This document shows, in pieces, positions 1,275-64,000 of a stretch of 64,000 nt of DNA. The stretch spans positions 7,812,001 through 7,876,000 of the forward strand of contig CM114271.1 of assembly GCA_050084515.1 (NCBI GenBank), read 5' to 3'. The first letter of the stretch is position 1. The number at the start of each line of letters is the position of its first letter. The notes beneath the pieces were generated by a model that had not been told where the DNA came from, searched no databases, and saw nothing but the letters and a program-made list of their open reading frames with translations. Position numbers and translations under genes: made by a program. The stretch is from Blasia pusilla (lineage: Eukaryota).

Positions 1275-2372
1275 TGTCGTGCGCATACACATCGCTACAC
1301 AACATACATCTTTGTTATCGAACATATCCACAAACACGCATGATCCCATGCTAACTCATGGCATCCAAACAATGAGACAAGAAGTACCAAAATATCTCCA
1401 ATTAAATCAATCAAATCTCTCATAACAAGCTCTCCATGGTGTGGAGAGCTCTCACTTCCCAACTTCCTTCAACATACGGCCTCTTCCCATCCAACCTTGA
1501 TACCGGTGTCCGTTTGTGCACAGCCTCCTTGACCTACTTTTGCATGGCCCTTTCGTGTATCACGGTGACTGACCACATGCTTAGGGTACCCAACCTACTC
1601 CCACTACTACAACTCTTGCCCAACTACCTCCGTTCTCCTTTCCTCCCCCCAACACCTCAACCACGATCGTGTGCCTCGATCTTCGTCAAGGCACACGAAC
1701 TAATGCGGTTGAGCTTGACTTTCTTGGCTTAATATAACCCTTAAGGCCCAAGTGTTCCCTATGTGTGGGACATCTGCGTGCTTTTTCCTCGATTGCGTGT
1801 GATTGTGTAAAGCTCCATATGGCTCTTTCCTCCCATAGCTCTCCCTTGCTTCCTTACTTAGCTTGTGGCATCCAACTTTGTGGCACATATGCTCCTATGT
1901 GTGACCTCACAAACCTGCTCATCCTAATTTCTTTCTCATGCCCTAACTCTTGGATCTGCTCTATGGCTACTTTGGCCTAACAATGACTCTACAACCTAGC
2001 CACCCCAACCGCTCGTTATTTGACAACCCCTCGTGACTACAAGACCAAAAGTTCTCTTGTCTCCCCTATTTTTTTACATACTCCCACGAACTCTCGATGC
2101 CCCACTCACTTGCTACACTTGAGCGCTTATGTCTACTAATTTACCAATGCCCTACATTAGTCTAAACCAGAGGAAATATGAGAAAATGAGTAGCACTCTA
2201 GCTCACAGCCTTTTATGCAAAAAATTGACAAAAAAATGCAAATACGTGTCTCTAGGGGCTTCCCACTTAGGCAACTTGTTGGTCCACTTGAACATAAAGA
2301 ATTCCTCCTCATCCCTTGAAGGGGGAAGTGAACAAAGTAAACATGACTAGCTCCACTCTCAAATCTACATTA
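1275..2372 (-). mobile_element. Internally deleted, non-autonomous relative of the DNMT-Gypsy family (A repeat, internal remnant, leader C, part of B)
   Basis: 1275-~1440 matches the A' repeat at 48638 and 49602 (TGTCGTGCGCATACACATCGCT...). ~1965-2330 is the reverse complement of the leader at 46290-46640. ~2331-2372 matches repeat B and is cut by a LINE. Confidence 0.65.
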
Positions 2373-13948: not shown

Positions 13949-14029
<81 letters not shown>

Positions 14030-14560: not shown

Positions 14561-15469
14561 CAACCACTACTTTCATGACAATCTCCAAATTTGGTGGCAA
14601 TTTCCCATGGGGCCCAAATTTCATCCGAGTGATCAAAGCGGATCCTTGATTCCTGCTTGACCATCGGATCCAATAATTCGACGTGACGCCACGCGACATT
14701 GCGACCTGGCCCTTACGGAACGTAACAATGGTGGGGGTAACCGTAGAGCCACAGTGCGCCTCTCTGACTGGCCCCATTAATTGATTTGATCACTGTGAGC
14801 TCGGCAAACGAACGAACAAGCGATGCTCCGCTCAGCGTTACGAAAACCCGGGCTAGGCGAGCGATCCGAAGCCCATCACGCGAGCATCCGTCCGCAGGAC
14901 AGACAGAGAATCGCGTAGTGAGTGCTTGCCTCCCTGAGCAAACGTTGGCTTAGGACTCCAATAGTCCCAGGGTTGGAGTTTCAGAAAAGAGACGAAGACT
15001 TCTGGTGGAGAAAAATTGGGAGCAAATTCGAAGCAGAGAGCGAGAGAGGGAGAGGGAGAGAGAGAGAACTGTGGACGATGGCAGCTCGATAGAGTGAGGT
15101 CATTGGGGTGTGGGTTCTGCGTAGGTGGTTGGTGGGAGCTGGGAATCGGAATTGAGTGCGGACGGAGGAGAATTGGATCGGGAGGAATTTCAGGAGAGGG
15201 GTAGGATGTAGGGGAGCAGTGACAGCAGGGAAGTGGAAAACGAAATTTCATTCGCTGGGGGTTTTATATGGATGGTTTTTCTTGTCTGTGGAGATCGTGT
15301 GGTTGTCTGGGATTTGAGAAGTTCAGTTGTTGAGAGCTGCGAGCCGTCGGGTTTGAACTGGGACAGTTATGTTGTCGAACAGTTGAGCGTCTGCTTGGCA
15401 CCTACACCCGAGAACAGATGGGGACGGTGAAGAATCTTAGGAGGAAAACTTAGTGGAAGTCTCTTCGAA

Positions 15470-43205: not shown

Positions 43206-45378
43206 GTGTCTAATTGATCTCATTCCTCAGAGATCCTTCTGTCAAAATCTAGTTCCAATCATTGTAAACAATTGTCGACTTCAAAAGAAAAAGAGTTCCA
43301 CAATTTCAAATGTTCCACCCACTGCCCGTCAACTTTGCCAACAAAAGGGGAGAAGCCAGCCCATAGGCAAATGACTCGAAGATTGAGCCCTTGCCCTTCA
43401 GCTTTCTGGGCGACTCTCGAACCCTACTGGCTTCCGATCCGCACCATTAATGCGGATTAGTGTTGGTGGATCTGATTTTACCTTGCAATAAGAGCTTAGT
43501 GATCATTCTGCTCATGTACATCTGTTTCATTAAGGCTGGTTAATCTCTCTGGGTGTTAGTCTTAGTGCCTCCCTCACCTCGGGGAGATTGTAGAAAAATT
43601 CTTCTTTTCAGAGATAATCATGTGATCGAATCTGTGGTTGCTTCGTGGCCCTTCCATACCCATGTTGTGAAACTAGGAAATATGCTCTGTGCCCAGAATT
43701 CGGTGTGGCAATCCCATTTGTTATGTCATGGAAATTTTGACGAAAGTGGTAATCAATTGTGTTTCATCCAACCAGCAATGTTCATGAAGTAGATACACAA
43801 TGTAATAATAAAAGAAAGTGTATACATGGAGTAGTATTTCATACCCATCAATTTTGGCCTATACTTCAAGAAAAAGTCCAGGTTCAATACCTGCACTCTT
43901 AGGTCACCTCATAAAAGAAGATCTCATATGACCTCTGAAAACAGGGAAGTACAAGGCTTGGATATTATCTTGCGTTATGCCTTATCTACCATGACACAAA
44001 AGACAAATAAACTCTCATTAATTCGAAGTAGATGTGGATCTTTGGATACTCCCTCTCACCAAGGTAAGTTGATCGGGGAGGAATTGGTGCTTCCTAATCA
44101 ATTAGAAGACTTGATATAGAGAAAGTTACATACTGCACAAATCAAGTTAAATTCTTGGATTGTATTTGGAGATGATGGTAGTATTTGGGCTAGTCACATA
44201 GAGTTTATATTCAAAAAGGATTGGGCTATGTCTTAAATGAATATAGATAAAAGAGGGACTACCCAATTTGTTGATGAAACTTTCCAAAAGATGGGATCCC
44301 CAATGTAGTAAAAGGAGAATTAGATTATGCACTTACCAAAATGAAACCATAAACGCGTTCAAGGAATTCTACAACGTTGTAGATATTTATGTTCAAAATT
44401 TTGGACATAAATTTAGGGTTGAGGAAAATATCCATCCTTGCAAGGACCTCACTAGTCGGATATTGAAATGAACTTTTAGACATTTTTTCAATATCCATTG
44501 GAAAATAGGAAAATGTATGAATGACGATGAGGTCGCAACCGTAGGAACCTTCCATGGAATCCACCACTAAGTAAAGGTATTGTCTCATGTGGATACTTTT
44601 CCAGCTATTTGGTAGGTCATGATGATCTACTCACTTTTGCCCCTCAGATTTGAAGGCGTAGTTATCTTGTACCCTCCAAAGTCCCGGGGACGTGTGATTT
44701 AGTACCCTTTCGAAGGAAAGATTTAATTGATATTGGCAGGAAAATCTTTGACTGGGAAATTCATGATTTTCTTACTTCCACCACATCAGAATTTTGAGTT
44801 TGTTGTGATAATTTATCAGCAAAAAATTTCTTGTCCCCTTCCATGTACTTGACTTGAAAAACAACATATCCCCTACGATCAGGGCTCCCGCTAGAACCTA
44901 CCCAATGGGGGCCCAACCTACCCTATGGGCTTGTCTTGGGCTAGTGAGGGCCATAAAACGGTGCGGGCTTGGGCAGATTGGGTATCTGCTACAGGCTCGA
45001 TGCGCGGGCCTGGTTGTGGGCCGCGGATACGCGGGCGGCATGTGAGTGGACACGACCATCCCATGAACGGACTTGTTCGTTTCCGTGCAACTTTGCTCCG
45101 CGTAGGCGTTCCCCTCCAAATATTCTTGTAGCCAACTAACACTACCCATGAATGTTTCCAAGGTGATCATTGTGTCACCTTGTGGATCACCACCACCATC
45201 ACACCTTGCAAACCACACAATTAGATGGCTCATTCGACCGTCATATAATCGCCATCCTCGTCAATATATAAGAAATCATCTCCTTCAAAAAATTGAGGTT
45301 GAAACTAAGGGAATATAACACTCTTCTCCCTACCAACATATTGAAAGACTCTTCAAGTGTTTTTATCACACGATTGCG

Positions 45379-47639: not shown

Positions 47640-48609
47640 TGTTGCAGAAGCGTGCGTTTAGTAAGACACATTCTGAATGTTGATCTCCATCCAAACATGC
47701 ACTCACGTTAGTCGGGTCTAGATCAATCAATGCTCTAACTCTGCGAGTTCTTGACTCGGCTTCTCATCAAGCTCAACCTTCCTAGTTTCTTACTTCACAA
47801 CATAGACAAATCTCTCAAGACTTGGGATAGACTTTCTAGTCGATTCAAGAACCTCAAATGGCGTTTGCATGCTTAGCGGTCCCAACTGTCCAAAGGACCT
47901 CGAATGAGTCCCTAACCGAGACTCACTAGAATGAGTCACGGGTTGGAATCCAAGTGTGGCTTTCGAAATCCATTCCCTTGGATCATGTTTGGGTTTCGAG
48001 TCCCAACGCCAAACTCTTGTTCCATCTTGTGCCCTTGAGCCACCCTTTGGTGTCCAAAGTGAGGTTTGTGTTCCAAGAATTCTTGGAGACACTCCCCCAT
48101 ACTAGTACTTCTGGGTATCATCCTTCTCCTCCTAACTATCGGAAAAGACAGTCGGGCCCTTCATTTTGGTCCTCAACCCAACTCCCTTTATAGTTATTTT
48201 TGGAAAATATCTCAGCCTCTTCTTGTGCGTTTGTTGAGATATTTGGTGCGTTGGAACAGTTTTTGCATAAGATTCATAACTCCATCTTAGTTGTCCCAAA
48301 CGCATCTTGCGACTTAATAGTATGATCCGAAACACAGTTAAAACCCCAAACACTAGTCGCGTTCCAAATCTGGTTCTCACCTCTTTGGCAACCAACCTTC
48401 CTAGACTCAACTTATCTCAAGTCTTGGTTTATGTTTGGTCCAGGTTTTCTAGTTGCGACCATAAACACATGAAATGCACAAAATCTATTCATGTGTTTCG
48501 TCTCTTAGACTCTTCCAAGAGACATGTCCAAAGCGCAACCATCCTAGTGAGAGCTCGATAATGTTCTGATGTTCCGCTTGGTGTTTTTTTGGTTACAAGG
48601 GTTGCGACA
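47640..48609. mobile_element. Probable solo LTR
   Basis: Termini TGTTGCA...TGCGACA; flanks TTTAG and TTTAC match at 4 of 5 bases, consistent with a target-site duplication. Confidence 0.55.
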
Positions 48610-48637
48610 TTTACAGCATCATATCTACAAGGTATTA

Positions 48638-49262
48638 TATCGTGCGCATACACCTTGCTATACAACATACATCGTTGTGACCAAACACACTCAGAAACAC
48701 AAACTATCTTGTGTTAACTCATGACATCCAAACATCGAGACGAGAAATATCAAAATATCTCTAATAAATCAAATAGATCTCTCACATAATCTCTCCATGG
48801 TGCACACAAATGTCTTTCTCTCTCGTGTCAAACCAAACCCACTCTCCTAATGAGACGCTTGGATTATACACACAAGGCAAGGAGGACCATAGTTTTGCCG
48901 CCTCATGCCAAGAGGTTCAATAAAGAGACAATGAAAATGGTATACCTCCAATTCTTTCTCTTGGAGGTATACTCCCTTCCTTCTGCTAAGCTCTTTCCAT
49001 GGTAACCTATGCTCGCAGGTCACCTCTTGGGCTCTTGACCTACTATAGCGGGTGAAGGGCTACTTCCCAAAGTGGGAAGTCAACTATACTCAAAATGGGA
49101 ACTTACCAAAAATAGTTTCTCTACATGGCTCCAAATAAGCTGAAACGAGGGGAAAACATGCTCTCTCAAGCCACAAGTCATCTTAGACCTCTTGAGAATG
49201 TCGTCCAATACCCTTGAAGGCGCTCTAATAGATCTCGTCGATCTATCCTAAAAGGCGTGACA
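48638..49262 (-). repeat. B'+A' terminal unit of a DNMT-Gypsy-related subfamily
   Basis: TATCGTGCGCATAC...GGCGTGACA; similar over its length to 49602-50228. Confidence 0.75.
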
Positions 49263-49601
49263 ATTGTTCTCTCAATGATTCGGAGTTCTTTAGAGCATCG
49301 TGTATGCAAGGCATTCTTCTCACAATGATTCTGAGTTCTTTGTAGATTTCAAGTAAGGATATTTATAACTTTCATGATCATTCAAACATCTCAAATGTAC
49401 TACCTTGGATAAGTTTGCACTAAATGTGAGGATAACCAAATCTTCTCAAACTCTGACATATCATTATTTTTTCTATCAAATTCAAAAAAAATCTTATTTT
49501 GACATACTTTTTAATCACTCCATGGAATTATAGGAATGCACAAAGCAGCTCTAATTTCTACTTGCATTCAAATTTTACTACAATATCACACATAAGTGAA
49601 T

Positions 49602-50278
49602 TGTCGTGCGCATACACATCGCTGTCACCCAACACACACACAAACACGCACGATCCCATGCTAACTCATAACATCCAAAAAATGAGACAAGAAGTACCAA
49701 AATATCTCCAATTAAAACAAGATCCAATCTCTCTCATAACACCATAGTTCTCATATGTGTGCACTCTCACATGTCTCTCTCAATGTCAAACCAAACCCAC
49801 TCTCCTAATGAGAGGCGTGGGTTACACACACAAGGCAAGCAAGACCATAGCTCCGCCGCCTCATGCCAAGAGGTTCAACAAAGAGAGAATGAGCTCTCAA
49901 GCTCTCTCTCCTTGAGGTATACCCCTCCCCTCTCCCAAGCTCTCTCCATGATAACCTATGCTCCCAAGTCACCTCCTTGGCTCTTGACCTGATATAGGAA
50001 GTCAAGGGCCACTTACCAAAAATTGAAAGTCGATCACATACTCAAAATGGTACTTATCTAGAATAGTAAGTTCCTCAATATGGTTCCAAATAAGCGGAAA
50101 CGAAGGGGAAACCTCCTCTCTCAAGTTTCCCCGACTTAATAGGTCATCCTTGACCTATTAAGCCTGTCCTCCGCTACTCACGAAGGCGCTCTACTAGATC
50201 TCACCGATCTATCCTAAGAGACGTGATAATTGTCGTGCGCATACATATCGCTACACAACATACATTGCTGTCACCAAA
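49602..50278 (-). repeat. A'-NN-B'-A' 3' terminal structure (inner A' truncated)
   Basis: Unit 49602-50228, spacer AT, then a restart TGTCGTGCGCATAC at 50231-50278. Confidence 0.78.
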
Positions 50279-51629
50279 CACTAGAAGGAATATGGTATTT
50301 TTAGCACTAAGTCACGTACAACTAAAGTCCAATAGTACTAAAATATAACTATATGTAACTTAAGTGGCCTATGTGGCAGATTGTAGTATCACTTAGTTAC
50401 TAAGAATGACTAAAGGGTATGACATGGTTTTTCTTATTATAATTGAGAAAATAAAATTATCATAAATTAATAACATATCATTATAAAATTATTACATTCA
50501 TGCAAAATAACTAACACGTGGCACTTATGATAGAATTTAACTAATTAAAAAAACTAAATTTTAATCCATAATAAGACATGTGAAAATAAGACTATAACAA
50601 TCATTTCCAAGTTGGTGTATAAGACCCTAATTAATAATGCCACAATATTTGATATTATTCCTCCTTCATGTTTCTTGTTTGTAATGTGTGTGATTTTCCC
50701 CGCAATCTTCGATCCCTTTTCCTGCGTGCACAAGTTCTAGGTTGAATCGAGGTTTTTGAGAGCCGCTTGAAGAAGCACAAGTGCATCGCGACGCGAGCTG
50801 AGGTGAGGTGGATGAGTGTTGTTGCTGTTAGATCAAGGAAATTGCTGGAGTGAGATCAATACAAGGGTTGGAGTAGGAGAAGAGAGAGCGAGAGGAATGG
50901 TTGCAGGAATTGAGCTGAGGAGTGATAGAAGCAAGTTGTTATTAGGTGTTGTGATATTTTTGTTCTTGTTTGTATTTTATTATTCATGGCGCATGCCCTC
51001 TCTCTCTCTCTCTATGTGAAAGCCACACTGTCGTCGGTCATCATAGCTGGAGTCTTAGAATGAGGTAGGATAAGTATGCGAAGCTGAATATTGGAATATG
51101 TCCCAAGCAATGCACTCAGTAAGCAAAATTGGCTAGGACTCCATGAGGCACGATTTACCATTTGTGGCCGAATCCTCGTTTGGAGAGTTAACTGCACCAA
51201 CATGATTTCTTTAAATTAATCACCCAGCTTGGTAGTAATTTCAATACTATACTATTTCTTCATCAGAGAACTCATCAACGCTATCCTCGCCCTTAATCTT
51301 CACACGACCTCTCTTCATAAAAGAGGGATCTAGCTCTTCCTCATTAAGTCTCCCTAGAGGACTCATTGCGACTCCTTGCCCGCCACTACTGCTTGATGGG
51401 ATATCACATGCGGTGTTTGTCTGATCGGATGCCTAAAGAGCTTGGGCTCTAATTTCGATTTGATTCCACGTCCTCAACTCTAATTTTGGACTCTTAAGAC
51501 TCGAGGCCGTCGCCGATGGAGGCTCGACATTCTTGCTTTGAGAGGAGTTCCTGAAGTTCTTTCTTTCTTTCTCTCTCTCCCCAATTGGGAGGCTCCCGAA
51601 CCCATCCCCCTTCAATTTTTTCTTAATGA

Positions 51630-52334
51630 AAGGGATTCGCTTTTATTTCCTTGTAGTTCTTTACTTCCCAGGATTTTGGGTTCTCTGCAGGACGGAATCC
51701 ATCAACAGATCGAATCTCCAGAGATGGGAGTGGGTGCTAGCGAATCCTCTAGTGATCCCACTGATATTGATTAAGGTGACATTGCGTGATCGGTGGCCAG
51801 GATATCAAAACTTGGTGGACAACTAGGCCAATTTTTTCTTCTTTTCCATTTTCTTTGTGACTGGTTTCTATTTGGCTCAATTTTGAAGACAACATTCATT
51901 CTCATTGTGGATTCAATGCAGCGCTTGGGACCATCTCCTCCGTTTTGAACCTGTTTCTTTCTCTGTTACTAGAATCCTTCCAACTCCCTATTGTGGCCCA
52001 AAGAATCATGTCTGCTCTTGCAACTTGGTACATCGTTTGTTCGCTCCTCTCGTTTGCTCAACAAGCTCTCTCAGAGAAAACACCTCCACGGTTTTGGGCC
52101 AAGTCTGCTTTCCCTGTGTACGTCATTCATGATGTTCCACTCTCTCTCATTGCTGATGGTCTGCTTAGTCGGTGGAAAGCACCTATTGCAATGAAGTTTG
52201 TGCTCTCAGATGCCTCTACCCTGATGAGCAGTCTCATGATTATGCACCTTATCGTCAATCGGTTTGCCTTATTCATATTTCTCATAGGCTTGAAGATGGC
52301 AGACCACCAATCATTTGCCAAAAAGCAGAGTTGA
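51630..52334 (+). pseudogene. Decayed acyltransferase-3 (OpgC/MdoC-like) membrane protein, C-terminal part
   Basis: FYFLVVLY, LRDRWPGYQNLVDN*ANFFFFSIFFVTGFYL, SAFPVYVIH, KFVL...RFALFIFLIGLK; stops and a frame change are present; family recognised from motif memory. Confidence 0.6.
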
Positions 52335-52553
52335 ACGTCGTGATGCATGTCGATTTCAGGGGAGTTCAATTAAGGGCCTGTCCCCATGGAACCAGTTTTG
52401 GGTCTATGGATCTTGGGGATCTACGATCCAAACTTCACTGACCAATATCGGGTCATGGGTATGTCTGCGCCGCCAAAAAAACACGTCGTGGAAAGTCCAG
52501 AGACGACCCTTGGAGTTTCTACGTGCTACAACCCGTATCATTTTCAAATTTCA

Positions 52554-52844
52554 ATAGCGATCATTTTGCCAATAATGTGTCACATCTAAGATGTTGATAT
52601 TCATAAGGAAACCTATGATGCATTGGAAAAGTTATTCCGGACATTTACAAAGGCGAGAAAACTTAAATTGAAACAACAATTGAACGAATTGAGAAAAGGA
52701 TAGTAGAACATCAATGAGTATGTTTTGAGTATCACACATATTGTTGATCAATTGAATAACATTGGAGTGTTAGTAGAAGACGATGATCTGATTTTTTTCA
52801 CTGTTCAAGGCCTTCCAAAATGATTACAAGTTCTTTGAGACCTC
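52554..52844 (+). mobile_element. Copia gag remnant related to 9670-9970; insertion site of the DNMT-Gypsy
   Basis: Nucleotide match (GATGTTGATATT...GATGCATTGGAAAAGTT...TTTGAGACCTC) ending exactly at TGTCGT 52845. Confidence 0.8.
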
Positions 52845-53600
52845 TGTCGTGCACATACATATCGCTACACAACATACATCGTTGGTCATATCTACACCAC
52901 AAAACACCGATCTTCCCCACACACGGGTCGATCCACACATGTACAAAAATCAACTCATACATATACATGGAGATCACAAAAAAAAAATAAAGAGTAGTAA
53001 AAATGGCACACCCGGCCTAAAACTCCACTCCTCAATCTACATCAGCATATCGAGTCTCGTCCACCCTGTGCTATCAAGGAATCCGGACGCTAGCACCCTA
53101 GTCCTAGCTCACACACATACAAGGGAGATGCTCCAACGGCCCAACATGAGAAAGATGGCTTAGGAAAGCCATCTTCCTCTCTTATATAGGGTTGGGAAGA
53201 GCCAAAAGGCTCTTCACCTAAAAATAGCCCTCCCCTTGGTAACCTGTGCGCATAGGTTACCAGGGGCGGGTGACCTGATTAACAAGTCACCCGGCTGTAA
53301 AAAAACTCAACATGAAAGTTGTCAAAAACAACGTTCCTGACACAATGGACCTATCCTCAACCTCATCCAACACCGTGGGACAAAGTTACACTCAAGATAG
53401 TCCGCTGGCTCCTACGCCCTATCCAAGGTAGATCTCGGCCTATCGGCTACTCAGATGTGACAGCTGTCGTGCGCATATATATCGCTACACAATATACATC
53501 GTTGGTCACATCTACACCACACAACACCGATCTTCCCCACACACGGGTTGATCCACACATGTACAAAAATCAACTCATACATATACATGGAGATCACACA
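52845..53600 (-). repeat. 3' terminal repeats A(53598-53465)-GC-B(53462-52979)-A(52978-52845)
   Basis: The two 134-bp A copies are near-identical; junction TGTGACA-GC-TGTCGTG on the + strand. Confidence 0.88.
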
Positions 53601-53677
53601 ACCGCCCTCTAGCTGGCAGTTGGATCCCCCCAACTCCAGATAGAAAATATCACATCTTTATGACATGACCTACTACC

Positions 53678-53830
53678 CTATACACATCTCGGACACATCC
53701 ATTGTCTCGTGGAAACCACATCAAGAGGGGGGGGTCAGACATGACATATGCCACCCTCGAGAACAACCATCACACACCAACATGGTGGCTGCACCCCTCG
53801 CAGATCCGCACAACATACACCTCAAGCCTG
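53678..53830 (-). CDS. PHD finger (C4HC3) at the C-terminus of the Gypsy polyprotein
   Basis: CMLC...LVCDGCSRGWHMSCLTPP, then after a +1 slip in a C run LDVVSTRQWMCPRCV and TAG. Confidence 0.88.
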
Positions 53831-53869
53831 CAGGTACCACTGCCAAGCTTGGATCCACCGTCCCATCTA

Positions 53870-54990
53870 CGTTAGGAAGATGACATGGCGCACAATTGCG
53901 CACATGATCCTTCCAAACCAACCATCCCGTCCCTCCAACATGAGGACTCCGGTCGGTAATACCTCGCGCACACGTAGGATCGTGCGCCCTGCAGTGACAT
54001 CTAGCGTCGTGGGTGCCGCATGTTGTAAATACACGTAATCTCGAGGATGAAACCTCCTAATCCTTGGACGATAACCTCCTCCACGAATGGTCGCGTACCT
54101 CAATGTATCTCTATGCTAGGCAATAGCTAAGTTATCAAAGGCCATAGGCATAACTCTACGAAAAACTTCTGCCCTCTGAGAACATGCTTGTATCCACACA
54201 TCTGGATCATCAAGATCTAACACCTCCGCCATGTCACGTCGAATTGCTGCAGGTAAATCTGGCTCTCTCCCAAAGAGCAAAAAGTACAGTGAAAATGACG
54301 CCAAGGATGCCTGCCGACTAAAGTGATAACCCATAGCCAACCATGGCAACTATAGGTCCCACTCCCTCAACTGTCCCCGCTGCAAGCCATACTTGCGCAA
54401 TCCTCTCTTCACCGTCTGTACCACTCTCTCCGCCAACCCATCCGCCTCGCTGATCCATCAACGTCTGATCACACAAGGCCTGAAATTCTCCCATGAACTC
54501 GGTACCCTGGTCAGTCAACACCTCCTCCGGTGCACCAAAGTGACTAAGCACACGATCTAGAAACGCATAAGCTGTTCCCTTGCTTCGCCTTGTCTGGTAG
54601 TGCCACCAACTCTATCCACTTGGAGAAATGCTCCACCATGACCAACACGTACCTATGATGACGCCCTGTCAATGGAAAAGGTCCCGCGAAGTCTAAACTC
54701 CACCGATAACCTAAACCCATAATCGGCAAAGGATGTCACTGCAGAGTGGGAGCATTGAAGGATGCTCGCACTCTGTCACATACCATACATCTGGCCACAA
54801 ACTGCTGTACCCCAGTATGCATGCCGCGCCACCAATACTGAACCTGGAGTAAGCTGTAATTACGCTTTACTCCGAAATGTCCCAACTCCTCATGGGCATG
54901 TCGCACTACACATGCTCGCTGGGAAGGATGAGGTACCACTCGTATCCTACCATCTCCCCATACCCGCAAAATATGAGTCCCCTCCCACCT
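53870..54990 (-). CDS. Gypsy DDE integrase (frameshifted)
   Basis: HHCC zinc finger HEELGHFG...CMVC, core WSLDFAGP and VLTDQGTEF, FLLFGREP. Confidence 0.88.
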
Positions 54991-55289
54991 GAACCTCTTG
55001 GCTCTCTGTAGGATCCGATCTCGCTCCCTAGCACTCACTATACTCGCAATGACGCCAGTGTGCAATAACTCCACAACCTCCACGTTGTCATGGATATCAC
55101 GACCACCTGTCGCCTCCTCACTAACCTCTGGATCCAAAGACTCATCATCCAACCCCACCACTGGAGTCATCACGTGTGGCTGACCTGCCATAGTCAACCA
55201 AGAAAGATAGGCAGATGCATGCCAATCGGGCACCATCTCCTCATCACTCTCTCCGTGCCATCGAGCTCTTATGTCGTCTCTTTGACTCG

Positions 55290-56540
55290 GACATGGGTTA
55301 CGACTCAACCCATCCACATCCTGGTTCAGCCGACCTGGCCTATGAACCACCTCAAACTCATACTCCTGTAGTAATAGAGCCCACCTGGCAAGCTTGCCCG
55401 TAAGCTTGTCGGACTCCATCAACCACCTCAACGGCTGATGATCAGTGATAAGTGTGAAAGGGTTGCCGAATAAATAGCACCTAAAATGTGCCCATGCCCC
55501 ATCTGCGAGCCCAAGCACTCTCCCTCGTAGGAGGAGCCGCCTCTGCAATGTTGTTCGATCGGCTCGCGTGAGCCACAACGAACTCCCTCTCCTCGTCATC
55601 CCTGTGAGTAAGCACTGCTCCTAGACCCAACATGCTCCAATCCGTATGTAACTGGAATGGGCGACCCCTAACCGGTCTCTGTAAAATGGGTGAGGATGTC
55701 AACCTGTCCTTGAGCTCCTACAATGCTTGCTCCTTATCATCTCCCCACAACCAAACCTGATCAAGTCTCGTCAACAAGGTCAAAGACTTTGCGATTGCAC
55801 TAAAACCCTTGACATACCGTCGATAGAAGTTCGCTAGTCCAAGAAATGCTCGGACTCGACTCACATCTGTAGGGCGTGGAATCTGCGCAATAGCCTCTAC
55901 CTTAGTCAGCTGAACGCCTAACCCACTCGGGTATATGGTGTGTCCCAAGTACTCAATCTGCTCCTGAAAGAATCTACACTTGCCTGGATGTAACTTCAGT
56001 CCATGTAACTGCAATTGCCGAAATACCTCCTCCAAGTGTTGCTCATGCTCCTCAAACGTGGAACTGAAGATAAGAATATCATCTATGTAACATCGTACAA
56101 AATCCAAGCCAGCCAGAATCCTATCCATCACTCTCTGAAACTCTGCAGGCGCGTTCTTCAACCCAAATGGTAAGAACCGCCATTGATACAAGCAATCTCT
56201 CCCAAACCGATCTATCCCCCATAATGTTGTCTTCTCCCTGTCCTCCAACCTGATAGGAAGTTGATGATAGCCAGCACGGAGATCTAAAGTACTGAAGATC
56301 TTTGCATGCCCTACCGCATCAAAGAGCTCCTCAGGAGTAGGCATGGCGTACCGATCTGACCTCCTTTGTCGGTCGATAGGACGGTAATCTCCACACATCT
56401 GCCTATCCGTCCAATTGCCTTACATATATCCTTCTTCGCCGGCATGACTATGGCAGACGCATACTCCCCATGTGATAACTCCAAAAGTCCTGCCTCCAAC
56501 AAGTCCTGACTCCTACTCTGAATCAAGGCTCGCTCCATAT
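55290..56540 (-). CDS. Gypsy reverse transcriptase and RNase H (frameshifted)
   Basis: CGDYRP, LDLRAGYHQ, PFGLKNAPAEFQR, YIDDILI, RAFLGLANFYRR, HTDWS, ITDHQPL, KLARW. Confidence 0.92.
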
Positions 56541-57039
56541 CGAGAATACTGAGGGTCGATTTAAAGATCCCATATCACTAGCCAACTCAATCCGTATCCC
56601 GGGACCCTTCAGCATACCCAAGTCTCTCATACTGAAGGCAAAACAACTGACATGCCCTCTTAGAAACCTATGAACTCGCCGTCGCTCTCCTCCTATCAAC
56701 TTGAGACCTATCACAGGCTCCCAAGTCTCCATCGTGACCTCACTCAGAGAGGACGCAACCTCCGGCTTTGGTTGCTATGTAGCAACCCTAGCCACATCAG
56801 CAACAGCCACTCCACCTTGACCTCCTACACCATGCTCCACATCCGAAAAATGAACATGTGCTACTCTAGCCGCCTTCGCACTCTCTGCTCGAACGACGTC
56901 CCAGGAAGTCCATGGGTGCCTATCTCTCCTCGTCTCACCCCCAACCAATGCCTGTACAGACCCTGTAGGCAATGGTCCAACTCGTGGACGTGACGGCATG
57001 GATGACACTCGCATGCGTCTCCGCTCAGCCATACCTAGG

Positions 57040-57990
57040 CTGACTATCCATGTGAGACAGTTGAGGTCCATCGCCTGCCCCAACACCTGTCTCCGTGATG
57101 CCTCAATCATCCCTGGCACCGCCGTAGTACTGGTAGTGAACCCCATGGCGTGCTCGCGCTCATCTACTGTAGGCTCCTCCAATGCTCCGATCACCTCATC
57201 CCAAATCATGCCTGGCCCTCTCTGACGAAAGGCATGGGATATTGGGAAGCTCACCAACGTAGGTAAGGCTGCCTTCAACTCCCCCACCCTATTGGCCATG
57301 GCCAACGGTGGTCTATCATCCCGTGTCACCACCTGAGATCGACGCCCTGAGCCCAAAATAGCATCCACTGTGAGATGTGGTGCTCTCTGGACTCCACTGT
57401 ATGCTCGACTCAGTACCTCTGATGATATCAGGTTCGTCCACCACAGTCGTGGACGATGGGCACGTGACCCAACTCTCGCTGCATCTAACAACACAACAGG
57501 TCCCAACTAGGACCTCACTTGATGTACATTCGTCATCACACGTGCACGAGTGTCTCCCAACAACGGCACGTTCTCCAAAATGTACGCTGGAGAACATATC
57601 TGACTCTCCTGCAAGTGTCGTACTACTCGCAGCATCTCCCAAAATATCCCTGACCTCGGATCCTGCAATCCAAATCCTCGGCCAGCTGATGAATGACCTT
57701 GACATGGCCATCCAGCAATCACCAAATGAATGGTGCCAACTCTATCCAGATCTTGCGCCCCCACCAAAGAGATGTCGGCGGGTAGCGTATGCTGGTATCC
57801 CCGTACTGCAGATACCGACAATAACTCAGGATACCTCTGGACCAATCTCGCCACGTGACGTAATGATACTCGCCGCGCGGTCTCATCTCTCTCCACATTA
57901 AGGTATTGATGCACCCGTATGCCCGCCTGCAATAGTGCAGCCAAACTGGTGCTAATCCCTCCAAAGAGATCTAACACCCTAACACCCTCC
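57040..57990 (-). CDS. DNMT3-like C5-cytosine DNA methyltransferase domain within pol (one in-frame TAG at 57507-57509)
   Basis: Motif I VLDLFGG, motif II VE, motif IV AGWPCQG, motif VI LENV, motif VIII AHRPRLWWTN, motif IX EREHAMGF, motif X VLGQAM, in canonical order in one frame. Confidence 0.92.
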
Positions 57991-59109
57991 TCTGGGCACT
58001 GCCACACAACAGGTGTGGTATCTAGTGGGGTCATCGTGTCCACTCCAAGAGCCTGATCGCCACGTGACTCTCGCGGCTGTGGGATAAAAACATGACTCCA
58101 CGCCTGCCTCACGAGGTCGTCGACACTCCTCTATAGCTCCCGAATCGTACCCCCAATGGCGAAGAGGCCTCGCCAACATGGGAAGAGACACCCGCCATGG
58201 CCTGTCTCTCCGTGGGACTATGTGCTACTGGGACATCCTCCGCATGTGCGTTCCCCTCCAACAACTCTCCTGTCCAGCTAACACTACCTGTGAAAGCTGC
58301 CAACGTGGTCACAGACTCGCCTCGTGATCGACCACCTCGTCCCGCAAACTGCACGGGTAACAGACTCATCCGGCCGTCACCTGACCGTCATCCTGGCCGA
58401 TAAGCAACGGTCTCCTCCCATAAGTCAAGGATGAATCCTAGGGGATATATCACTGTACTCCCCACCAAGACATCGTACGACTCAGTTGGTGTCGTAATCA
58501 CACGTGTGCACACCATAGCACTATCCGTCGCATGCTCTGGCTGGACTCTAACAACAATCTCATGTTGAGTCATATACTGAGTGGGTGATACGCCCCCAAT
58601 CGAGGTCTGTATCTGGAAGGGACAAGGCTCAATGTTGGCCTTCCGTAACCCCAACGCTAAACACGCCGCCTTCCCTAACATCAAGGGTTGCGCTCCCTAA
58701 TTAAGTACGACGCGCTGCGGGGAGTATACTGTCCCCGTCGGACTAACCAAGAAAAAAACTGCAGCTCAGTTATCCGGTAACACTACTCCAGGTATCACCA
58801 CTGCTCGCTCTATTGCCGGTCAAGCTAGCATATCTACCAACTTCGCCGCCGCCGCATGCCATGACTCTATGGGGAACATCCCCAGCACCAGCTCTGAGGG
58901 CAAGTCCACCACCTCCTCAACTACCTCTGAACAAGAAGCAGTCATCTCTCCACACTCACACAACATGGCGGCCAACCGGAACACCTCAGCTGGTCCAACT
59001 CCCAACGTCGCCAACTCTATGGCGGAAAATAGTGGAGTCTGACTCACTCTGGTGGCCACCTGCAACACTATGGTCGACACTGACTCCACTCGAGCCGGCA
59101 TAGGATTTG

Positions 59110-60936
59110 TCACTCCAACTCCTCGTGACGTCGACGTGAGGTGCTCGAATCAGAGGCATCGCTGGTCGCCGAGGCACCATCGATGGTGTGTGTAGTGCCT
59201 CCGACAATGTGAACGATCATTTGTGGAACCCTGGCCTGCCGCCCATCGGTCCCCTCTGGTGGGTCAATCTCAACTCCACCTCTCGATGGCTCGGTGCCTC
59301 TCGCAGCACCCCGAGTCACCACTGCAGCTGCCTCAACCTGGGCTGCACTACACATAAATCCCATACAAGCGAGATCCTCATCTGGGTCAGGGTAAGAGGT
59401 AGAAACTAGAGTTACACTAGCTGCCCGTAGCTCCGTGCCTTCCCTAAGCTGCATCATTGTCATGGTAGCAATCCTCTGCTCCAACCGATCGATGCGTGAG
59501 AGAAGTGTCGGCTCTGGTGCTCCTGCTCCATCTCCTCTAACTGGTGGTGGTCCTCTACCACCACGACCAGGAAGAACTCCCCGACCTCCTCTAGGAAAAC
59601 CGCCCCCAGGCCCTCGGCCTACCTCTGGACGTGCCCCTCAGCAAAGGTCAAAACACCTATCCCTAGTGTGACCATATCTGTGGCAATGGTCACACTGGTG
59701 CTGTGGTGGGGCCATCCACTGTGGCTCCTGAGCAATCGGAGGCACTGGTAGTCCTCTCCCATGTTGTGGGCAGTCTCTCTGCCTATGGGCCCCTCCACAC
59801 ATCCAACAAGACCACACCGGTCCCTGTTGGGCAACATATGTAGGTGCGGGTCGTTGCCTCATAGGCTCACGGTACCCGCCCTGCTCTCTAGGCACACGCT
59901 TGGCCCGCTCCGTGGTATCGTGCTGGTGCTCGTTGTTGGCACTGTGGGGTCACTGCCGCTCGCGGGTGGACCCGTCGACTCTCGAGAAAATCCAGCGGTC
60001 ACTACCTGCTCCTCACTCATGTTGAGCTCAATACGCTCAGACAACTCAAAGACCACCTTCAATGTGGGCTTCGCTGTGTGAATCAGCACCGCATCTCAGA
60101 CTCTCCTCCGTAGTTCTCGGTCCGTAACCCAGACCAATCTTTGGGTGATTGCGCCTCGATCCTCCAAATGTAGCAATGATCAGCCTCCTCATGCGTGTGA
60201 ATGCCTCTCTCAGACTCTCACCCGATCGTCGCTGAAAATCCTGTAGACTCTTCAGCTTGTCGGTGCGTATGCCTTATTAGTTCTTCCCCAACTGTCGGAA
60301 TAACTCCACTGTGGGGCTGAAGCTGGGTGGCTCTCTACCACCAGAGGTCTCTGCCACATCGCCTGTCTCACTACCCTCCTCTCCATCTAGTCTCCGGGCT
60401 GATGGTGTGGATCTCTCTCCTCTCACAATCCCATCATATGCCTCGCGACCACTAGTGGACACATACCCTGGAGCCCAATACATCCTCCAAGCATCGATCT
60501 CTACTGAATATAGTGATCAAAACTCCATGTAGTCATCCATCAGAGGACCCTCCAAGTGCTGGAACAACCCCTTCCATGCCATGAAAGGGTTGAACCGTGT
60601 CAGGGACCATATCTCTTGGAAGTCGCACAATGTGTCGAACTCCTGGACAAAATCATCTAAGTCGATGGTGCCCACTGCACCCGAGAAACGATGTATGCCC
60701 CGATGGCCCATGTCGTCCATCTCCTGCCAAGTACTACTGTCTCCGTGTATGATCTCGTCATCAGACCCAGTGTCCAGTGATGACGATCCAGTCTCGGATG
60801 GATGTCGAGGGAGCTCCTCACTGGTAACCCCTCGGTATCTCACTCCACTCCGTGTCACACCACTACTACTGCTCGCACTACCCCGTTCTTCCGAACCCTG
60901 GAAGAACGTCGTGATGACAAACCCTGTCTCACCCAC
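59110..60936 (-). CDS. Gypsy gag (degenerate)
   Basis: IHRFSG...DDFVQEF...LFQHLEG; knuckles CWMCGGAHRQRDC and CDHCHRYGHTRDRC. Confidence 0.75.
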
Positions 60937-62078
60937 TCAAGCACTCAGACTCACCGAGAGTCTCCCACACGCCTCACTAGCTCACCTATGCGAACATCAA
61001 TCCCGTGATGACATACCCGGCCTCACGCACGCTCAACGCTCAGGCTCACCATGAGCCTCCCAACTGACTCACCTAACCTAACGACACACGGGATTCCTGA
61101 GGGTCATGGGAGGGGCATAAGGTGGAATGTAGAAGTCATGAGCAGAAGAATAAACAACACTTATTTTGGTTTTTGGAGGCTTTCTAAAGATTTGTGGCAA
61201 GAGATTCCGACCCTAAACTATTTTTTTGGCCTCTCTGTGGTTATGGACACGAGCTTCTAACTCTGTGTACTTCTCGTGTTAATTGAAATTTCACAACTCT
61301 TGAGACACATTTTGGAAATCTCTGTGTACTGGATTCAGGCTCAATTAGAAAAAATTTAAAGTTGAAATGTCTAGTGCATACTGGTAGTTGAGCAAGAACT
61401 GGCCAATCAGGATTAGTCCACGAGCTTCAGTTCGATCTTGTGGACTATGGACTGGAGCATAATGTCTCCAAGTGGCAGAACCACGAAACTCACCAATCCT
61501 TGATGTTAGTCAAAGCCATTGCCATCACTACGGTAGTACCAAGTGCAACATGATGTGATAAGACATTTCATGCAAGCTCTACGCACCGACTTGTTTGGCC
61601 TCATGGTATTAGGGTCGATTAAGAGGCCTTGGCTGATTTGATGCAGGGAGAGAGTTTTAGGAATTCGATTATGATTTTGAAAATGAGAAGAGACGCGAAG
61701 ATTTAATCCTGTCCTTGAAAATATGAGCACATCTTTATTAAGAAAGAAATTTATAGGATTGAAAGCGTGTTGATCCAATCTTGAAGCAATCAGACATAGG
61801 TGTCCCATCCAAACTTGACCTCAAGAAAAAGCAACCATATCTAGATGCCTTTGCCTCATTAGGAATTCGGCCTTATTTTTGCCTATCTGTCCATTCTCGG
61901 AAGTCAATCTCAAGAGCTAGTGCCTTCCTTTTTCAGAGTATGGCTCTTGCTTGTAAGGTTTTGGGAGGAAGAAATTTTCTGATCCTCCTTTCCACACCCG
62001 AACATCATATCCTCCCTAGGGCTCACGAGGTCACTCCTTTCTCTGGATATGGTTATTGTATGACGGGAATTCAATTAT

Positions 62079-64000
<1,922 letters not shown>

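What the first reader, a model, noticed from the sequence alone, without database searches (positions are those of the whole stretch)
57040..57990. Gypsy retrotransposon carrying its own DNMT3-like cytosine methyltransferase between protease and RT
Seen: a minus-strand frame with C5-MTase motifs I, II, IV, VI, VIII, IX and X in order (VLDLFGG, GWPCQ with the catalytic Cys, ENV, RxR, ERxxMGF, LGQAM). Only one TAG breaks it, and it sits inside a gag-PR-[DNMT]-RT-RH-IN polyprotein. Known, from memory: DNMT-carrying retrotransposons have been reported in dinoflagellates and a charophyte alga, but they are not a standard feature of land-plant Gypsy lineages. The neighbouring host gene is a land-plant-type At3g11960-like gene. 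Inference: active copies may package a protease-released MTase that methylates their own cDNA or the insertion site, as self-marking or host mimicry.
Basis: partly seen in the sequence, partly recalled or inferred. Interest (0 to 1): 0.92.

Follow-up and report, generated by a model that had tools for sequence, protein, structure and literature searches.

The report
Liverwort Gypsy retrotransposon carrying a DNMT3 methyltransferase
This is a dead copy of an abundant liverwort jumping gene that carries its own DNA-methylating enzyme, a kind first described in a green alga and here found across liverworts and peat mosses.

Summary
Minus-strand frame 57006-58031 is a C5 cytosine methyltransferase domain (Pfam PF00145, 41.7 bits) with motifs I, IV, VI, VIII, IX and X in order and one internal TAG. 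Its closest solved relatives, by sequence and by predicted fold, are DNMT3A/B/C.

It lies in a Ty3/Gypsy-type element ordered gag(CCHC)-PR-DNMT-stop-RT-RH-IN-PHD. This copy is dead: 29 in-frame stops, at least 7 frame changes, and no 5' repeat.

The contig is from a liverwort, not an alga.

The domain is not a one-off capture:
- DNA runs of the same organism give about a thousand-fold higher summed depth over the element, DNMT bins included, than over unique flanks.
- Collinear relatives occur in Marchantia, Calypogeia, Riccia, Sphagnum and Closterium.
- Between lineages the domain evolved under purifying selection (dN/dS about 0.1). Recent copies decay neutrally.

Two features were not found in print. 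A positionally conserved in-frame stop follows DNMT (TAG-CAA-CCA in the window), so DNMT would be made with Gag. A sister clade places DNMT between RNase H and integrase.

The kind is known (KnitGypsy-Dnmt3, Klebsormidium, 2018). No paper found describes it in land plants. What the enzyme does is untested.

The parts
57006..58031 (-). DNMT3-type C5 cytosine methyltransferase domain (342 codons, one internal TAG)
   Evidence: PF00145 at 41.7 bits. PDB sequence search ranks DNMT3A/B/C first. AlphaFold2 model pLDDT 95; Foldseek top hits are DNMT3A/B/C, E 1.6e-19. Motif coordinates.
57507..57509 (-). In-frame TAG inside the DNMT domain (domain codon 175), between motifs VI and VIII
56769..56777 (-). 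Positionally conserved in-frame stop after DNMT, context TAG-CAA-CCA; homologous coding sequence continues in the same frame
   Evidence: The same position is a stop in L001, L002 and L003 (TAG/TAA-CAA-CCC). 18 of 19 relatives with the HPW..W[DN] motif end 20-87 residues after it. It is the only one of 29 stops with this context.
58184..59137 (-). Aspartic protease region, degenerate (4 in-frame stops); reads N-stop-G-A where relatives have D-S-G-A
   Evidence: tblastn to P0092, P0095, P0099 and P0123. Alignment. No Pfam hit.
59182..60720 (-). Gag-like region with a CCHC knuckle at 59653-59694; 9 in-frame stops
   Evidence: Aligns to residues 1-488 of Marchantia P0092. Stops, knuckle. No Pfam hit.
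55718..56419 (-). Reverse transcriptase
   Evidence: PF00078 at 107.3 bits.
54736..55620 (-). RNase H C-terminal part and the integrase zinc-binding domain
   Evidence: PF17917 at 48.2 bits and PF17921 at 53.1 bits.
54095..54735 (-). Integrase catalytic core, split over three frames
   Evidence: Two rve pieces, 26.5 and 23.5 bits, both below the 32.6 cut-off. tblastn to the integrase of P0123 and P0109.
53721..54056 (-). PHD finger after the integrase, cut short by a stop
   Evidence: PF00628 at 29.4 bits, cut-off 24. The same C-terminal PHD is present in P0112, P0122, L009 and L010.
53456..53601 (-). Repeat B1 (146 nt). Its last about 43 nt (53458-53500) are a motif conserved at 86% in the L002 and L004 relatives, just before repeat A
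52982..53455 (-). Repeat A2 (about 474 nt). Positionally equivalent to A2 of L002, whose partner A1 lies 5' of gag; no sequence similarity between the window's A2 and L002's A2 was found beyond the junction motif
   Evidence: L002 5907-6213 matches 14654-14960 at 94%. The window 52788-53451 bin has about twice the internal depth.
52836..52981 (-). Repeat B2, 93% identical to B1; 3' end of the element
   Evidence: DNA depth falls from 7540 to 17 in the next bin. The flank 52548-52848 is a copy of another repeat at 9676-9975.
60721..60950 (-). Short remnant upstream of gag; no A1 repeat follows, so the copy looks 5'-truncated. The 60950 limit is a rough estimate from depth.
   Evidence: Depth falls to 1048 in bin 60756-61400. 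Local alignment of 60701-62300 against 51501-53800 scores 31; the best of 20 shuffles scored 30.
45066..45372 (-). Second, older fragment of a related element (protease region only)
   Evidence: blastn: 58238-58504 matches 45096-45372 at 68%. tblastn. Depth 344-569.

Best explanation
SHOWN. The locus is a dead, apparently 5'-truncated copy of a high-copy Ty3/Gypsy-type retrotransposon of a liverwort. The order is gag(CCHC)-protease-DNMT-[in-frame stop]-RT-RNase H-integrase-PHD. It ends in split direct repeats (B1-A2-B2) rather than a plain LTR. The DNMT is an unpermuted DNMT3-type catalytic domain. It is an integral part of the family, conserved under purifying selection, in a streptophyte lineage found in liverworts, Sphagnum and Closterium. 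That makes it the same kind of element as the published KnitGypsy-Dnmt3 of Klebsormidium.

INFERRED (about 60%). In active copies the default translation product is Gag-PR-DNMT. RT-RH-IN-PHD is made only when ribosomes read through the conserved leaky-type stop. DNMT would then be as abundant as Gag and would be present where the cDNA is made.

INFERRED (about 40-45%). After protease processing the enzyme methylates the element's own new cDNA, or the fresh insertion, de novo. The copy would enter the genome already marked like host-silenced DNA. The integrase-linked PHD finger would read histone tails to choose insertion sites. This particular copy does nothing.
For: Identity:
- Pfam hits.
- Collinear alignment to Marchantia gag-PR-DNMT and PR-DNMT-RT-RH proteins.
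- 69% nucleotide identity over 4346 nt to metagenome element L002.

DNMT3 type:
- 29 of 45 PDB sequence hits are DNMT3A/B/C and they rank first (E 2e-8). DRM2 follows at 8e-4 and M.HhaI at 2e-3. No DNMT1 or CMT appears.
- AlphaFold2 model pLDDT 95, pTM 0.93.
- All Foldseek ranks shown (1-49) are DNMT3A/B/C.

Constraint:
- The catalytic PCQ, ENV, RxR and E-x-E-x3-G columns are at least 90% conserved in 42 sequences of 31-70% identity.
- Window against L001-L005: pN 0.20-0.23, pS 0.71-0.74.

Family membership of the domain:
- DNMT bins have summed depth 2433-3114, like the gag, PR and RT bins (1767-4660). Unique flanks have 0-17.

Host: liverwort. The host gene on the same contig is spliced in RNA runs of the same organism label.

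Leaky stop:
- A stop at the same alignment position in 4 of 4 DNA copies that cover it.
- 18 of 19 relatives end there. The Marchantia and Sphagnum gene models that run on skip it.
- Context TAG-CAA-CCA, shared by 1 of 29 stops in the element and by only 2 sites in the 64 kb window.

Low-level sense-strand RNA: depth 2-6.7 over IN-RT and 0.5-1.7 over DNMT.

The cDNA self-methylation idea was proposed for the known retrotransposon DNMTs (PMC5890265 abstract and discussion passages).
Against: - No activity data exist. The K. nitens homologue gave no methylation in yeast. The authors call this inconclusive because human DNMT3B also failed.
- CpG observed/expected in the element is 0.69. That is higher than the rest of the window (0.43) and than other transposons here (0.14-0.33). 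There is therefore no sign of extra CG-methylation decay in this family, although youth could explain it.
- No intact copy from this organism was seen, because no genome is held.
- Readthrough rests on sequence context only. The TAG-CAR-YYA rule is recalled from plant-virus work, not taken from a call. The Sphagnum-like copies end the motif in C, not A.
- A more distant relative of the same domain order (P0123) has one continuous ORF, so the stop is not universal.
- No K. nitens sequence was returned by any search, so kinship with KnitGypsy-Dnmt3 rests on shared features.
- RNA reads laid at 95% identity cannot be assigned to a particular copy.
Confidence: 0.75

Rival explanations
1. The DNMT domain acts on the host rather than on the element's own cDNA. 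Being as abundant as Gag, it would methylate DNA around insertions or genome-wide. Alternatively it would titrate host DNMT3 partners, reshaping or blunting host silencing.
For: Placement upstream of the conserved stop predicts high abundance. The family is very abundant in this genome, so even weak activity in trans could matter. De Mendoza et al. raise accidental activity on the host genome in their discussion (passage seen).
Against: No methylome data were examined here. K. nitens, which carries such elements, has a plant-like methylome (PMC5890265 section 9). Transcript levels of the family are low.
Confidence: 0.15
2. The domain is kept as a DNA- or chromatin-binding tether. Like a chromodomain, it would steer the pre-integration complex, together with the PHD finger, and catalysis would be dispensable.
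For: A PHD finger sits after the integrase in both architectures, so chromatin targeting is part of the design. The K. nitens domain showed no activity in yeast.
Against: The catalytic Cys of PCQ, the Glu of ENV and the RxR arginines are at least 90% conserved across 42 sequences down to 31% identity. A pure tether would not need them.
Confidence: 0.12
3. The enzyme methylates the element's RNA genome (m5C) rather than DNA.
For: De Mendoza et al. consider RNA methylation for the LINE-borne DNMT (discussion passage). Gag-linked expression puts the enzyme next to the packaged RNA.
Against: The nearest solved relatives, by fold and by sequence, are DNA enzymes DNMT3A/B/C. No RNA methyltransferase such as DNMT2 appears. 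The paper made the RNA suggestion for a different, non-DNMT3 clade.
Confidence: 0.05
4. Chance capture or assembly artefact: a host DNMT3 fragment or an algal contaminant that happens to lie inside one Gypsy copy and evolves neutrally.
For: This copy carries a stop in the domain and is dead. Recent copies L001-L005 evolve at dN/dS 0.5-1.4.
Against: The same gene order is seen in Marchantia, Calypogeia, Sphagnum, Closterium and metagenome loci. Depth over the DNMT bins equals that of the rest of the element. Between lineages dN/dS is about 0.1. The contig carries a liverwort gene that is spliced in RNA of the same organism label.
Confidence: 0.02

Closest known systems
KnitGypsy-Dnmt3 of Klebsormidium nitens (de Mendoza et al. 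2018, Nat Commun 9:1341, PMC5890265; abstract, sections 9 and 10 and passages read)
   Same: An unpermuted DNMT3-type domain inside the coding region of a Gypsy-type element. Key catalytic residues are conserved and selection is purifying (their Ka/Ks below 0.2; here about 0.1 between lineages). The repeat arrangement is described as DIRS-like (A-coding-B-A-B), of which B1-A2-B2 is seen here. The host is a streptophyte.
   Different: The host here is a land plant (a liverwort), with relatives in other liverworts and Sphagnum. Copy number is high here, whereas the paper speaks of fewer copies in K. nitens. A conserved in-frame stop after DNMT and a C-terminal PHD finger are not mentioned in the text I read. 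The domain order of the algal element is in a figure I could not see, and no K. nitens sequence was available to compare.
SymbioDIRS-Dnmt3 of Symbiodinium (same paper)
   Same: A DNMT3-type domain in a retrotransposon Pol, with two coexisting domain orders. It methylates CG de novo in yeast.
   Different: Tyrosine-recombinase DIRS backbone and a dinoflagellate host. The authors treat it as an independent acquisition.
Host DNMT3 of animals and non-flowering plants (DNMT3A/B; PpDNMT3a/b, Yaari et al. 2019, PMC6453930, passages read)
   Same: Catalytic fold and motif order. Best PDB matches by sequence and by structure.
   Different: No PWWP/ADD or DUF3444 companion domain. No introns, and embedded in a polyprotein. 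About 55 extra residues relative to the roughly 285-residue DNMT3 catalytic domains. About 20% identity to human DNMT3.
RT-RH-DNMT-IN-PHD elements (called 'type B' here), such as 'pol' of Scenedesmus sp. PABB004 and metagenome loci L009 and L010
   Same: The same DNMT family (35-40% identity), a Gypsy RT-RH-IN backbone, and a PHD after the integrase.
   Different: DNMT sits between RNase H and integrase. A separate, well-supported clade in the DNMT tree (111 rows, none with the window's domain order). Intact 2034 and 2027 aa ORFs exist.
Leaky UAG stops of plant viruses and stop-codon suppression in retroelements (TMV-type UAG-CAR-YYA; MuLV gag-pol; soybean SIRE1). All recalled, from no call.
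   Same: An in-frame UAG followed by CAA-CCA separates an abundant upstream product from the replicase part.
   Different: The boundary lies after protease and DNMT rather than after gag. Readthrough is untested.

Membership tests
C5 cytosine DNA methyltransferase (PF00145) | Significant match to the family profile | tested here: met
   41.7 bits against a cut-off of 22, E 1.3e-10.
C5 cytosine DNA methyltransferase (PF00145) | Catalytic motifs present: FxGxG (I), PC with the nucleophilic Cys (IV), ENV (VI), RxR (VIII) | tested here: met
   All are present in the window copy. Their columns are at least 90% conserved in 42 relatives. One TAG interrupts the domain.
DNMT3 clade | Motif order I-X unpermuted, unlike DRM | tested here: met
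   Order I, IV, VI, VIII, IX, X along the frame.
DNMT3 clade | Closer to DNMT3 than to DRM, DNMT1/MET1, CMT or bacterial enzymes | tested here: met
   PDB phmmer: DNMT3A/B/C at E 2e-8 to 4.5e-5 (29 sequences), DRM2 at 8e-4, M.HhaI at 2e-3, none for DNMT1 or CMT. Foldseek ranks 1-49 shown are all DNMT3. This is a ranking, not a tree.
DNMT3 clade | Placement inside the DNMT3 clade in a phylogeny with host DNMT3, DRM, CMT and MET1 | not testable with these tools
   No reference host DNMT sequences could be obtained. The tree holds only family members and is midpoint-rooted.
Ty3/Gypsy LTR retrotransposon | Pol order PR-RT-RH-IN, with integrase after RT | tested here: met
   with DNMT inserted between PR and RT.
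Ty3/Gypsy LTR retrotransposon | Gag with a CCHC knuckle | tested here: met
   CDHCHRYGHTRDRC at 59653-59694. Pfam zf-CCHC hits the relative P0123 but not the window copy.
Ty3/Gypsy LTR retrotransposon | Two long terminal direct repeats flanking the element | tested here: not met
   No repeat pair flanks 53.7-61 kb. The 3' end is B1-A2-B2. Relative L002 has A1 and A2 at 94% identity.
Ty3/Gypsy LTR retrotransposon | RT groups with a named Gypsy lineage (REXdb/GyDB) | not testable with these tools
KnitGypsy-Dnmt3 kind (PMC5890265) | DNMT3-type domain in the coding region of a Gypsy-type element of a streptophyte | tested here: met
KnitGypsy-Dnmt3 kind (PMC5890265) | DIRS-like split direct repeats (A-coding-B-A-B) | tested here: inconclusive
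   B1-A2-B2 is seen in the window and in L007. A1 with B1-A2 is seen in L002. No single locus shows the whole arrangement, and A1 is absent from the window copy.
KnitGypsy-Dnmt3 kind (PMC5890265) | Purifying selection on the DNMT | tested here: met
   Between lineages pN is 0.20-0.23 against pS 0.71-0.74. dS is saturated, so the ratio is approximate.
KnitGypsy-Dnmt3 kind (PMC5890265) | Direct sequence kinship with the K. nitens copies | not testable with these tools
   No Klebsormidium protein was named among the hits that carried a source name, nor among the 30 looked up.
Programmed stop-codon readthrough site | In-frame stop at a conserved position, with coding sequence continuing in frame | tested here: met
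   Window, L001, L002 and L003. 18 of 19 relatives end there.
Programmed stop-codon readthrough site | Measured readthrough | not testable with these tools
   Needs a reporter assay.

The most novel reading that the evidence does not exclude
Gypsy-DNMT3 elements would be an old streptophyte retroelement lineage that predates land plants and is still abundant, and perhaps active, in liverworts, including the genetic model Marchantia. They would express the methyltransferase in Gag-like amounts through a programmed leaky stop and methylate their own cDNA before or at integration. If so, part of de novo DNA methylation in bryophyte genomes is written by transposon-encoded enzymes rather than by the host. 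The sister architecture, with DNMT next to the integrase, would be an alternative solution to the same task.
Probability: 0.25. Interest if true: 0.8.

Novelty: new member of a known kind. Interest (0 to 1): 0.55.

Why it matters
Transposons that carry the enzyme normally used to silence them are a paradox. The function of these enzymes has not been shown for the streptophyte type, and the only assay was inconclusive.

Finding the same kind of element at high copy number in a liverwort matters because many collinear copies also exist in Marchantia polymorpha, a plant with transformation, mutants and methylomes. That moves the question from hard-to-handle algae into a tractable model.

The conserved stop after DNMT gives a concrete, testable prediction about how much enzyme is made and where. 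The two domain orders offer a natural comparison.

There is also a practical point. Many bryophyte gene models annotated as 'DNA (cytosine-5-)-methyltransferase' or as hypothetical proteins are transposon genes, and they inflate DNMT counts.

Tried and rejected
- Whole-genome search of the window's own assembly: no genome is held.
- LTR search: direct-repeat finder, self-blastn and local alignment found no pair flanking the element.
- Pfam on the gag and protease regions read through with X: no hit, nor for the matching Marchantia and L002 segments.
- Naming of distant relatives: of 30 proteins looked up, only Scenedesmus (1 query) and Closterium (2 queries) carried organism names. No Klebsormidium sequence surfaced.
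- Protein atlas on the Marchantia DNMT part gave only generic DNA_methylase clusters.
- The IQ-TREE run did not finish in time. The FastTree tree was used instead. It has 178 rows. 108 of the 285 family proteins were dropped because their matched DNMT stretch was under 270 residues or absent.
- Sequencing-run search: no RNA holder was listed for the DNMT stretch, and no run held more than 0.45 of its sampled words. The laid RNA runs were added by species label.
- Literature: nine full-text searches and passages of eight papers found no description of DNMT-carrying Gypsy elements in liverworts or mosses. A 2026 preprint (10.64898/2026.05.21.726589) and a 2025 paper (PMC12344493) refer only to 'streptophytes', citing the 2018 paper.
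- Supplementary files were not opened. The supplementary DNMT trees of these papers may already contain bryophyte sequences.
- Considered and rejected: a host DNMT3 gene interrupted by a Gypsy insertion, rejected on collinearity across taxa and uniform depth; and algal contamination, rejected on the liverwort host gene.
Full report
**1. Observation**

The minus strand of window 56900-58100 reads as one frame that contains six motifs in order:
- VLDLFGG at 57957-57977
- GWPCQ at 57699-57713
- ENV at 57567-57575
- RPR at 57447-57455
- EREHAMGF at 57138-57161
- LGQAM at 57069-57083

A single TAG lies at 57507-57509. With that stop read as X, the frame matches Pfam PF00145 (C-5 cytosine-specific DNA methylase) at 41.7 bits, E 1.3e-10, against a curated cut-off of 22.

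**2. What kind of methyltransferase**

A sequence search of all PDB chains returned 45 distinct sequences at E up to 0.01:
- The first 29 are DNMT3A, 3B or 3C, the best at E 2.4e-8.
- Five DRM2-type chains follow, at about 8e-4.
- Eleven bacterial M.HhaI/HaeIII chains follow, at about 2e-3.
- No DNMT1 or chromomethylase chain appears.

An AlphaFold2 model was built on a 42-sequence alignment of relatives. It has mean pLDDT 95 and pTM 0.93. Every Foldseek match shown, ranks 1 to 49, is a DNMT3A/B/C catalytic domain. The best has E 1.6e-19 and a target-normalised TM-score of 0.84.

The motif order is unpermuted, unlike plant DRM enzymes. In the alignment, the columns of the PCQ cysteine, ENV, the two arginines of RxR and the E-x-E-x3-G motif are at least 90% conserved in sequences that share only 31-70% identity with the window.

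'DNMT3-like' is therefore supported as a ranking. A rooted tree with host DNMT3, DRM, CMT and MET1 could not be built here.

**3. The element around it**

Minus-strand frames downstream hit these families:
- RVT_1, 107 bits, at 55718-56419
- RT_RNaseH and Integrase_H2C2 at 54736-55620
- two rve pieces below the Pfam cut-off at 54318-54735
- a PHD finger, 29.4 bits, at 53721-54056

Upstream, gag and protease give no Pfam hit. However, Marchantia proteins of 1248-1333 residues align from their first residue at 60720 through gag, protease and DNMT. P0099 continues from there into RT and RNase H.

Where Marchantia and Sphagnum-like relatives have the aspartic protease signature D-S-G-A, the window reads N-stop-G-A. 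One CCHC knuckle lies at 59653-59694.

The order is gag(CCHC)-PR-DNMT-RT-RH-IN-PHD.

The copy is dead. Guide-protein alignments contain 29 in-frame stops: 9 in gag, 4 in the protease region and one inside DNMT. The frame changes at least seven times between 60720 and 53700.

**4. Ends of the element**

No long terminal repeat pair flanks the element. A local alignment of 60701-62300 against 51501-53800 scores 31. The best of 20 shuffles scored 30.

The 3' end has a different layout:
- a 146-nt repeat B1 (53601-53456)
- about 474 nt of A2
- B2 (52981-52836), 93% identical to B1

Just beyond B2 the sequence becomes a copy of another repeat, and DNA depth collapses.

Related loci show matching pieces:
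- L007 has the same B-A-B layout: B of 200 nt, 95% identical, 979 nt apart.
- L002 has A upstream of gag and again after B, at 94% over 307 nt, where the contig ends.
- A 43-nt motif at the B/A junction is 86% identical between the window and L002 or L004, while the coding sequence is 69% identical.

Taken together these pieces give A-coding-B-A-B. This is the 'DIRS-like' repeat structure that de Mendoza et al. report for KnitGypsy-Dnmt3 (Fig. 4 legend). No single locus shows all of it. The window copy lacks A1, so it appears 5'-truncated.

**5. Host and contamination**

A 668-codon exon at 23935-25941 is most similar to the SF3B3/DDB1-like protein of these species:

| Species | Identity |
|---|---|
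| Marchantia polymorpha | 73% |
| Riccia fluitans and R. sorocarpa | 69% |
| Calypogeia fissa | 66% |
| a lycophyte (next best) | 57% |

RNA reads from runs that carry the same organism label as the best DNA holders splice the last exons of this gene at GT..AG introns. The contig is from a liverwort.

**6. Is the domain part of the family?**

Contigs from two DNA runs of that organism were laid at 95% identity or more.

| Region | Summed depth |
|---|---|
| Internal element bins, 53452-60755 | 1767-4660 |
| The two DNMT bins | 2433-3114 |
| Bin holding A2 and B2 | about 7000 |
| Non-repeat flanks, 50796-52787 | 0-27 |
| Single unique contigs | about 3 |

The tool warns that summed depth is not a copy number. 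The contrast is nevertheless about a thousand-fold, and the DNMT is as deep as gag and RT.

Protein searches found 91 relatives of similar length and 25 longer ones. The named ones come from:
- Marchantia polymorpha, 19 proteins
- Calypogeia fissa, 5
- Sphagnum species, 5
- Riccia sorocarpa, 1

An exhaustive profile-free search found 232 clusters at E 1e-30 or better. Look-ups of 30 of these named only a Scenedesmus 'pol' and Closterium proteins.

**7. Two architectures**

- 50 have DNMT after protease or before RT, as in the window.
- 85 have RT-RH-DNMT-IN, usually with a PHD.
- 144 show DNMT only.
- 6 show no DNMT.

The DNMT tree was built with FastTree on 178 rows and is midpoint-rooted. 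Rows with under 270 matched residues were dropped. A branch with 99% local support separates 111 rows from 67 rows:
- The 111 rows hold 84 with the second order, 27 untyped, and none with the window's order.
- The 67 rows hold 35 with the window's order, 32 untyped, and none with the second order.

The window sits in a fully supported clade of 20 rows with Marchantia and Calypogeia. The Closterium sequences belong to the same side of the tree.

Intact ORFs of the second type, 2034 and 2027 residues, exist in metagenome contigs. Both types end in a PHD finger, which points to one backbone with a relocated DNMT. Without DNMT-free Gypsy references this is not shown.

**8. Selection**

Nei-Gojobori counts on the DNMT codons gave the following:
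- Window against the Sphagnum-like loci L001-L005: pN 0.20-0.23 and pS 0.71-0.74. The corrected ratios are 0.08-0.13 for four of the five pairs; the pair with L003 was saturated and gave no ratio. Synonymous sites are saturated throughout, so the ratios are approximate.
- Among L001-L005, which are about 5% apart and carry stops: 0.5-1.4.

This is the pattern expected of a transposon. The lineages that stay active are constrained, and inserted copies decay neutrally.

**9. A conserved stop after DNMT**

The DNMT frame of the window ends at TAG 56775-56777. Homologous sequence continues in the same frame after it. The three Sphagnum-like loci that cover the site have a stop at the same alignment position, also followed in frame by Q-P: TAG or TAA, then CAA-CCC.

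Of 19 relatives with the HPW..W[DN] motif, 18 end 20-87 residues after it, including Marchantia, Calypogeia and Sphagnum models. The one that continues skips the site. The Marchantia models that continue each skip a different stretch around it.

The window's context is TAG-CAA-CCA. It fits the UAG-CAR-YYA leaky-stop rule of plant viruses, which I recall from memory and did not take from a call. It is the only one of the copy's 29 stops with that context. The pattern occurs only twice in the 64 kb window.

A more distant relative with the same domain order, P0123, has one continuous ORF.

I infer programmed readthrough, at about 60%. Gag-PR-DNMT would be the default product, and RT-RH-IN-PHD the rare one.

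**10. Expression**

Stranded RNA reads lie in the sense direction of the element:
- depth 2-6.7 over integrase to RT
- depth 0.5-1.7 over DNMT
- about 0 over gag and protease

The host gene has depth 5-28 in the same runs. Given the copy number, the family is largely silent. The reads cannot be assigned to particular copies.

**11. How it most likely works**

Shown: a catalytically complete, selected DNMT3-type domain in the upstream reading frame of an abundant Gypsy-type family.

Inferred: the enzyme is made with Gag, is released by the protease, and methylates the newly made cDNA or the fresh insertion (40-45%). The PHD finger would guide integration.

Catalytic-residue conservation argues against a purely structural role.

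Against the self-methylation reading:
- The K. nitens domain did not methylate yeast DNA, a result the authors call inconclusive.
- CpG observed/expected is 0.69 in the element, against 0.43 for the rest of the window.

**12. Comparison and novelty**

The kind is known: de Mendoza et al. 2018 (PMC5890265) described Gypsy elements with DNMT3 in the charophyte Klebsormidium nitens. That paper's main text does not mention Marchantia, liverworts, mosses or Sphagnum.

Nine full-text searches found no paper that describes such elements in bryophytes. Two later papers speak only of 'streptophytes'.

Several gaps limit this claim:
- Supplements were not seen.
- Subscription journals are not in the library.

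I file this as a new member of a known kind, with three additions:
- land-plant hosts and high copy number
- the conserved stop after DNMT
- the clean split between two domain orders

It is interesting chiefly because Marchantia makes the function testable.

Noticed in passing
window 48600-50800: A very high-copy repeat with an internal period of about 955 bp. Summed DNA depth reaches about 18,800 in bin 49468-50131, and it is transcribed from the minus strand at depth 13-27. It shares only a 40-55 nt motif with the B-repeat end of the DNMT element. That motif also occurs at 1275-1314 and 48626-48677. It may be a solo terminal repeat of a related family.
   Followed up: partly
window 23935-44155: A host SF3B3/DDB1-like gene on the plus strand with very long, transposon-filled introns. 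There is one 668-codon exon at 23935-25941. Spliced GT..AG introns at 41923-42993 are supported by RNA reads. Copia-like and LINE-like elements lie in between. RNA reads carry fixed differences from the window, for example 26 of 26 at 43273, so the RNA comes from another strain or individual.
   Followed up: partly
loci L009 (699-6800) and L010 (1400-7480); proteins P0112, P0122, P0135: A second architecture, RT-RH-DNMT-IN-PHD, has intact ORFs of 2034 and 2027 aa. It is present in 'pol' of a Scenedesmus. In the DNMT tree a branch with 99% local support separates 111 such rows (84 typed as this architecture, 27 untyped, none with the window's order) from the 67 others.
   Followed up: partly
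DNMT tree: Sphagnum-like copies (P0002, P0005, P0008 and others) group with the Marchantia copies at 95% local support, to the exclusion of the window's and Calypogeia's copies. This does not follow host relationships. Either several old paralogous lineages exist, or there was transfer between mosses and liverworts. Synonymous sites between the window and the Sphagnum-like loci are saturated, so no recent transfer involves this copy.
   Followed up: no
window 52800-61000 against DNA contigs of runs X1 and X5: Across the whole 20 kb laid, the window has A or T where the other copies have G or C about three times as often as the reverse: 65 against 19 places in X1 and 56 against 10 in X5. 26 of the copy's 29 stops are TGA or TAG. 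Both fit decay by deamination of methylated cytosines.
   Followed up: partly
Marchantia and Sphagnum gene models P0095, P0099, P0101, P0109: Public gene models that run from DNMT into RT each skip a different stretch around the conserved stop, as if an intron had been predicted to bridge it. Other models end at the stop and are named DNA (cytosine-5-)-methyltransferase or hypothetical protein. These are transposon genes counted as host genes.
   Followed up: partly
window 62080-62250 and 13965-14028: A long (GA)n microsatellite lies just beyond the 5' side of the element, and the same repeat occurs in the opposite orientation at 13965-14028. At 62290-62991 there is a copy (88%) of the LINE-like sequence at 2373-3066.
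   Followed up: no
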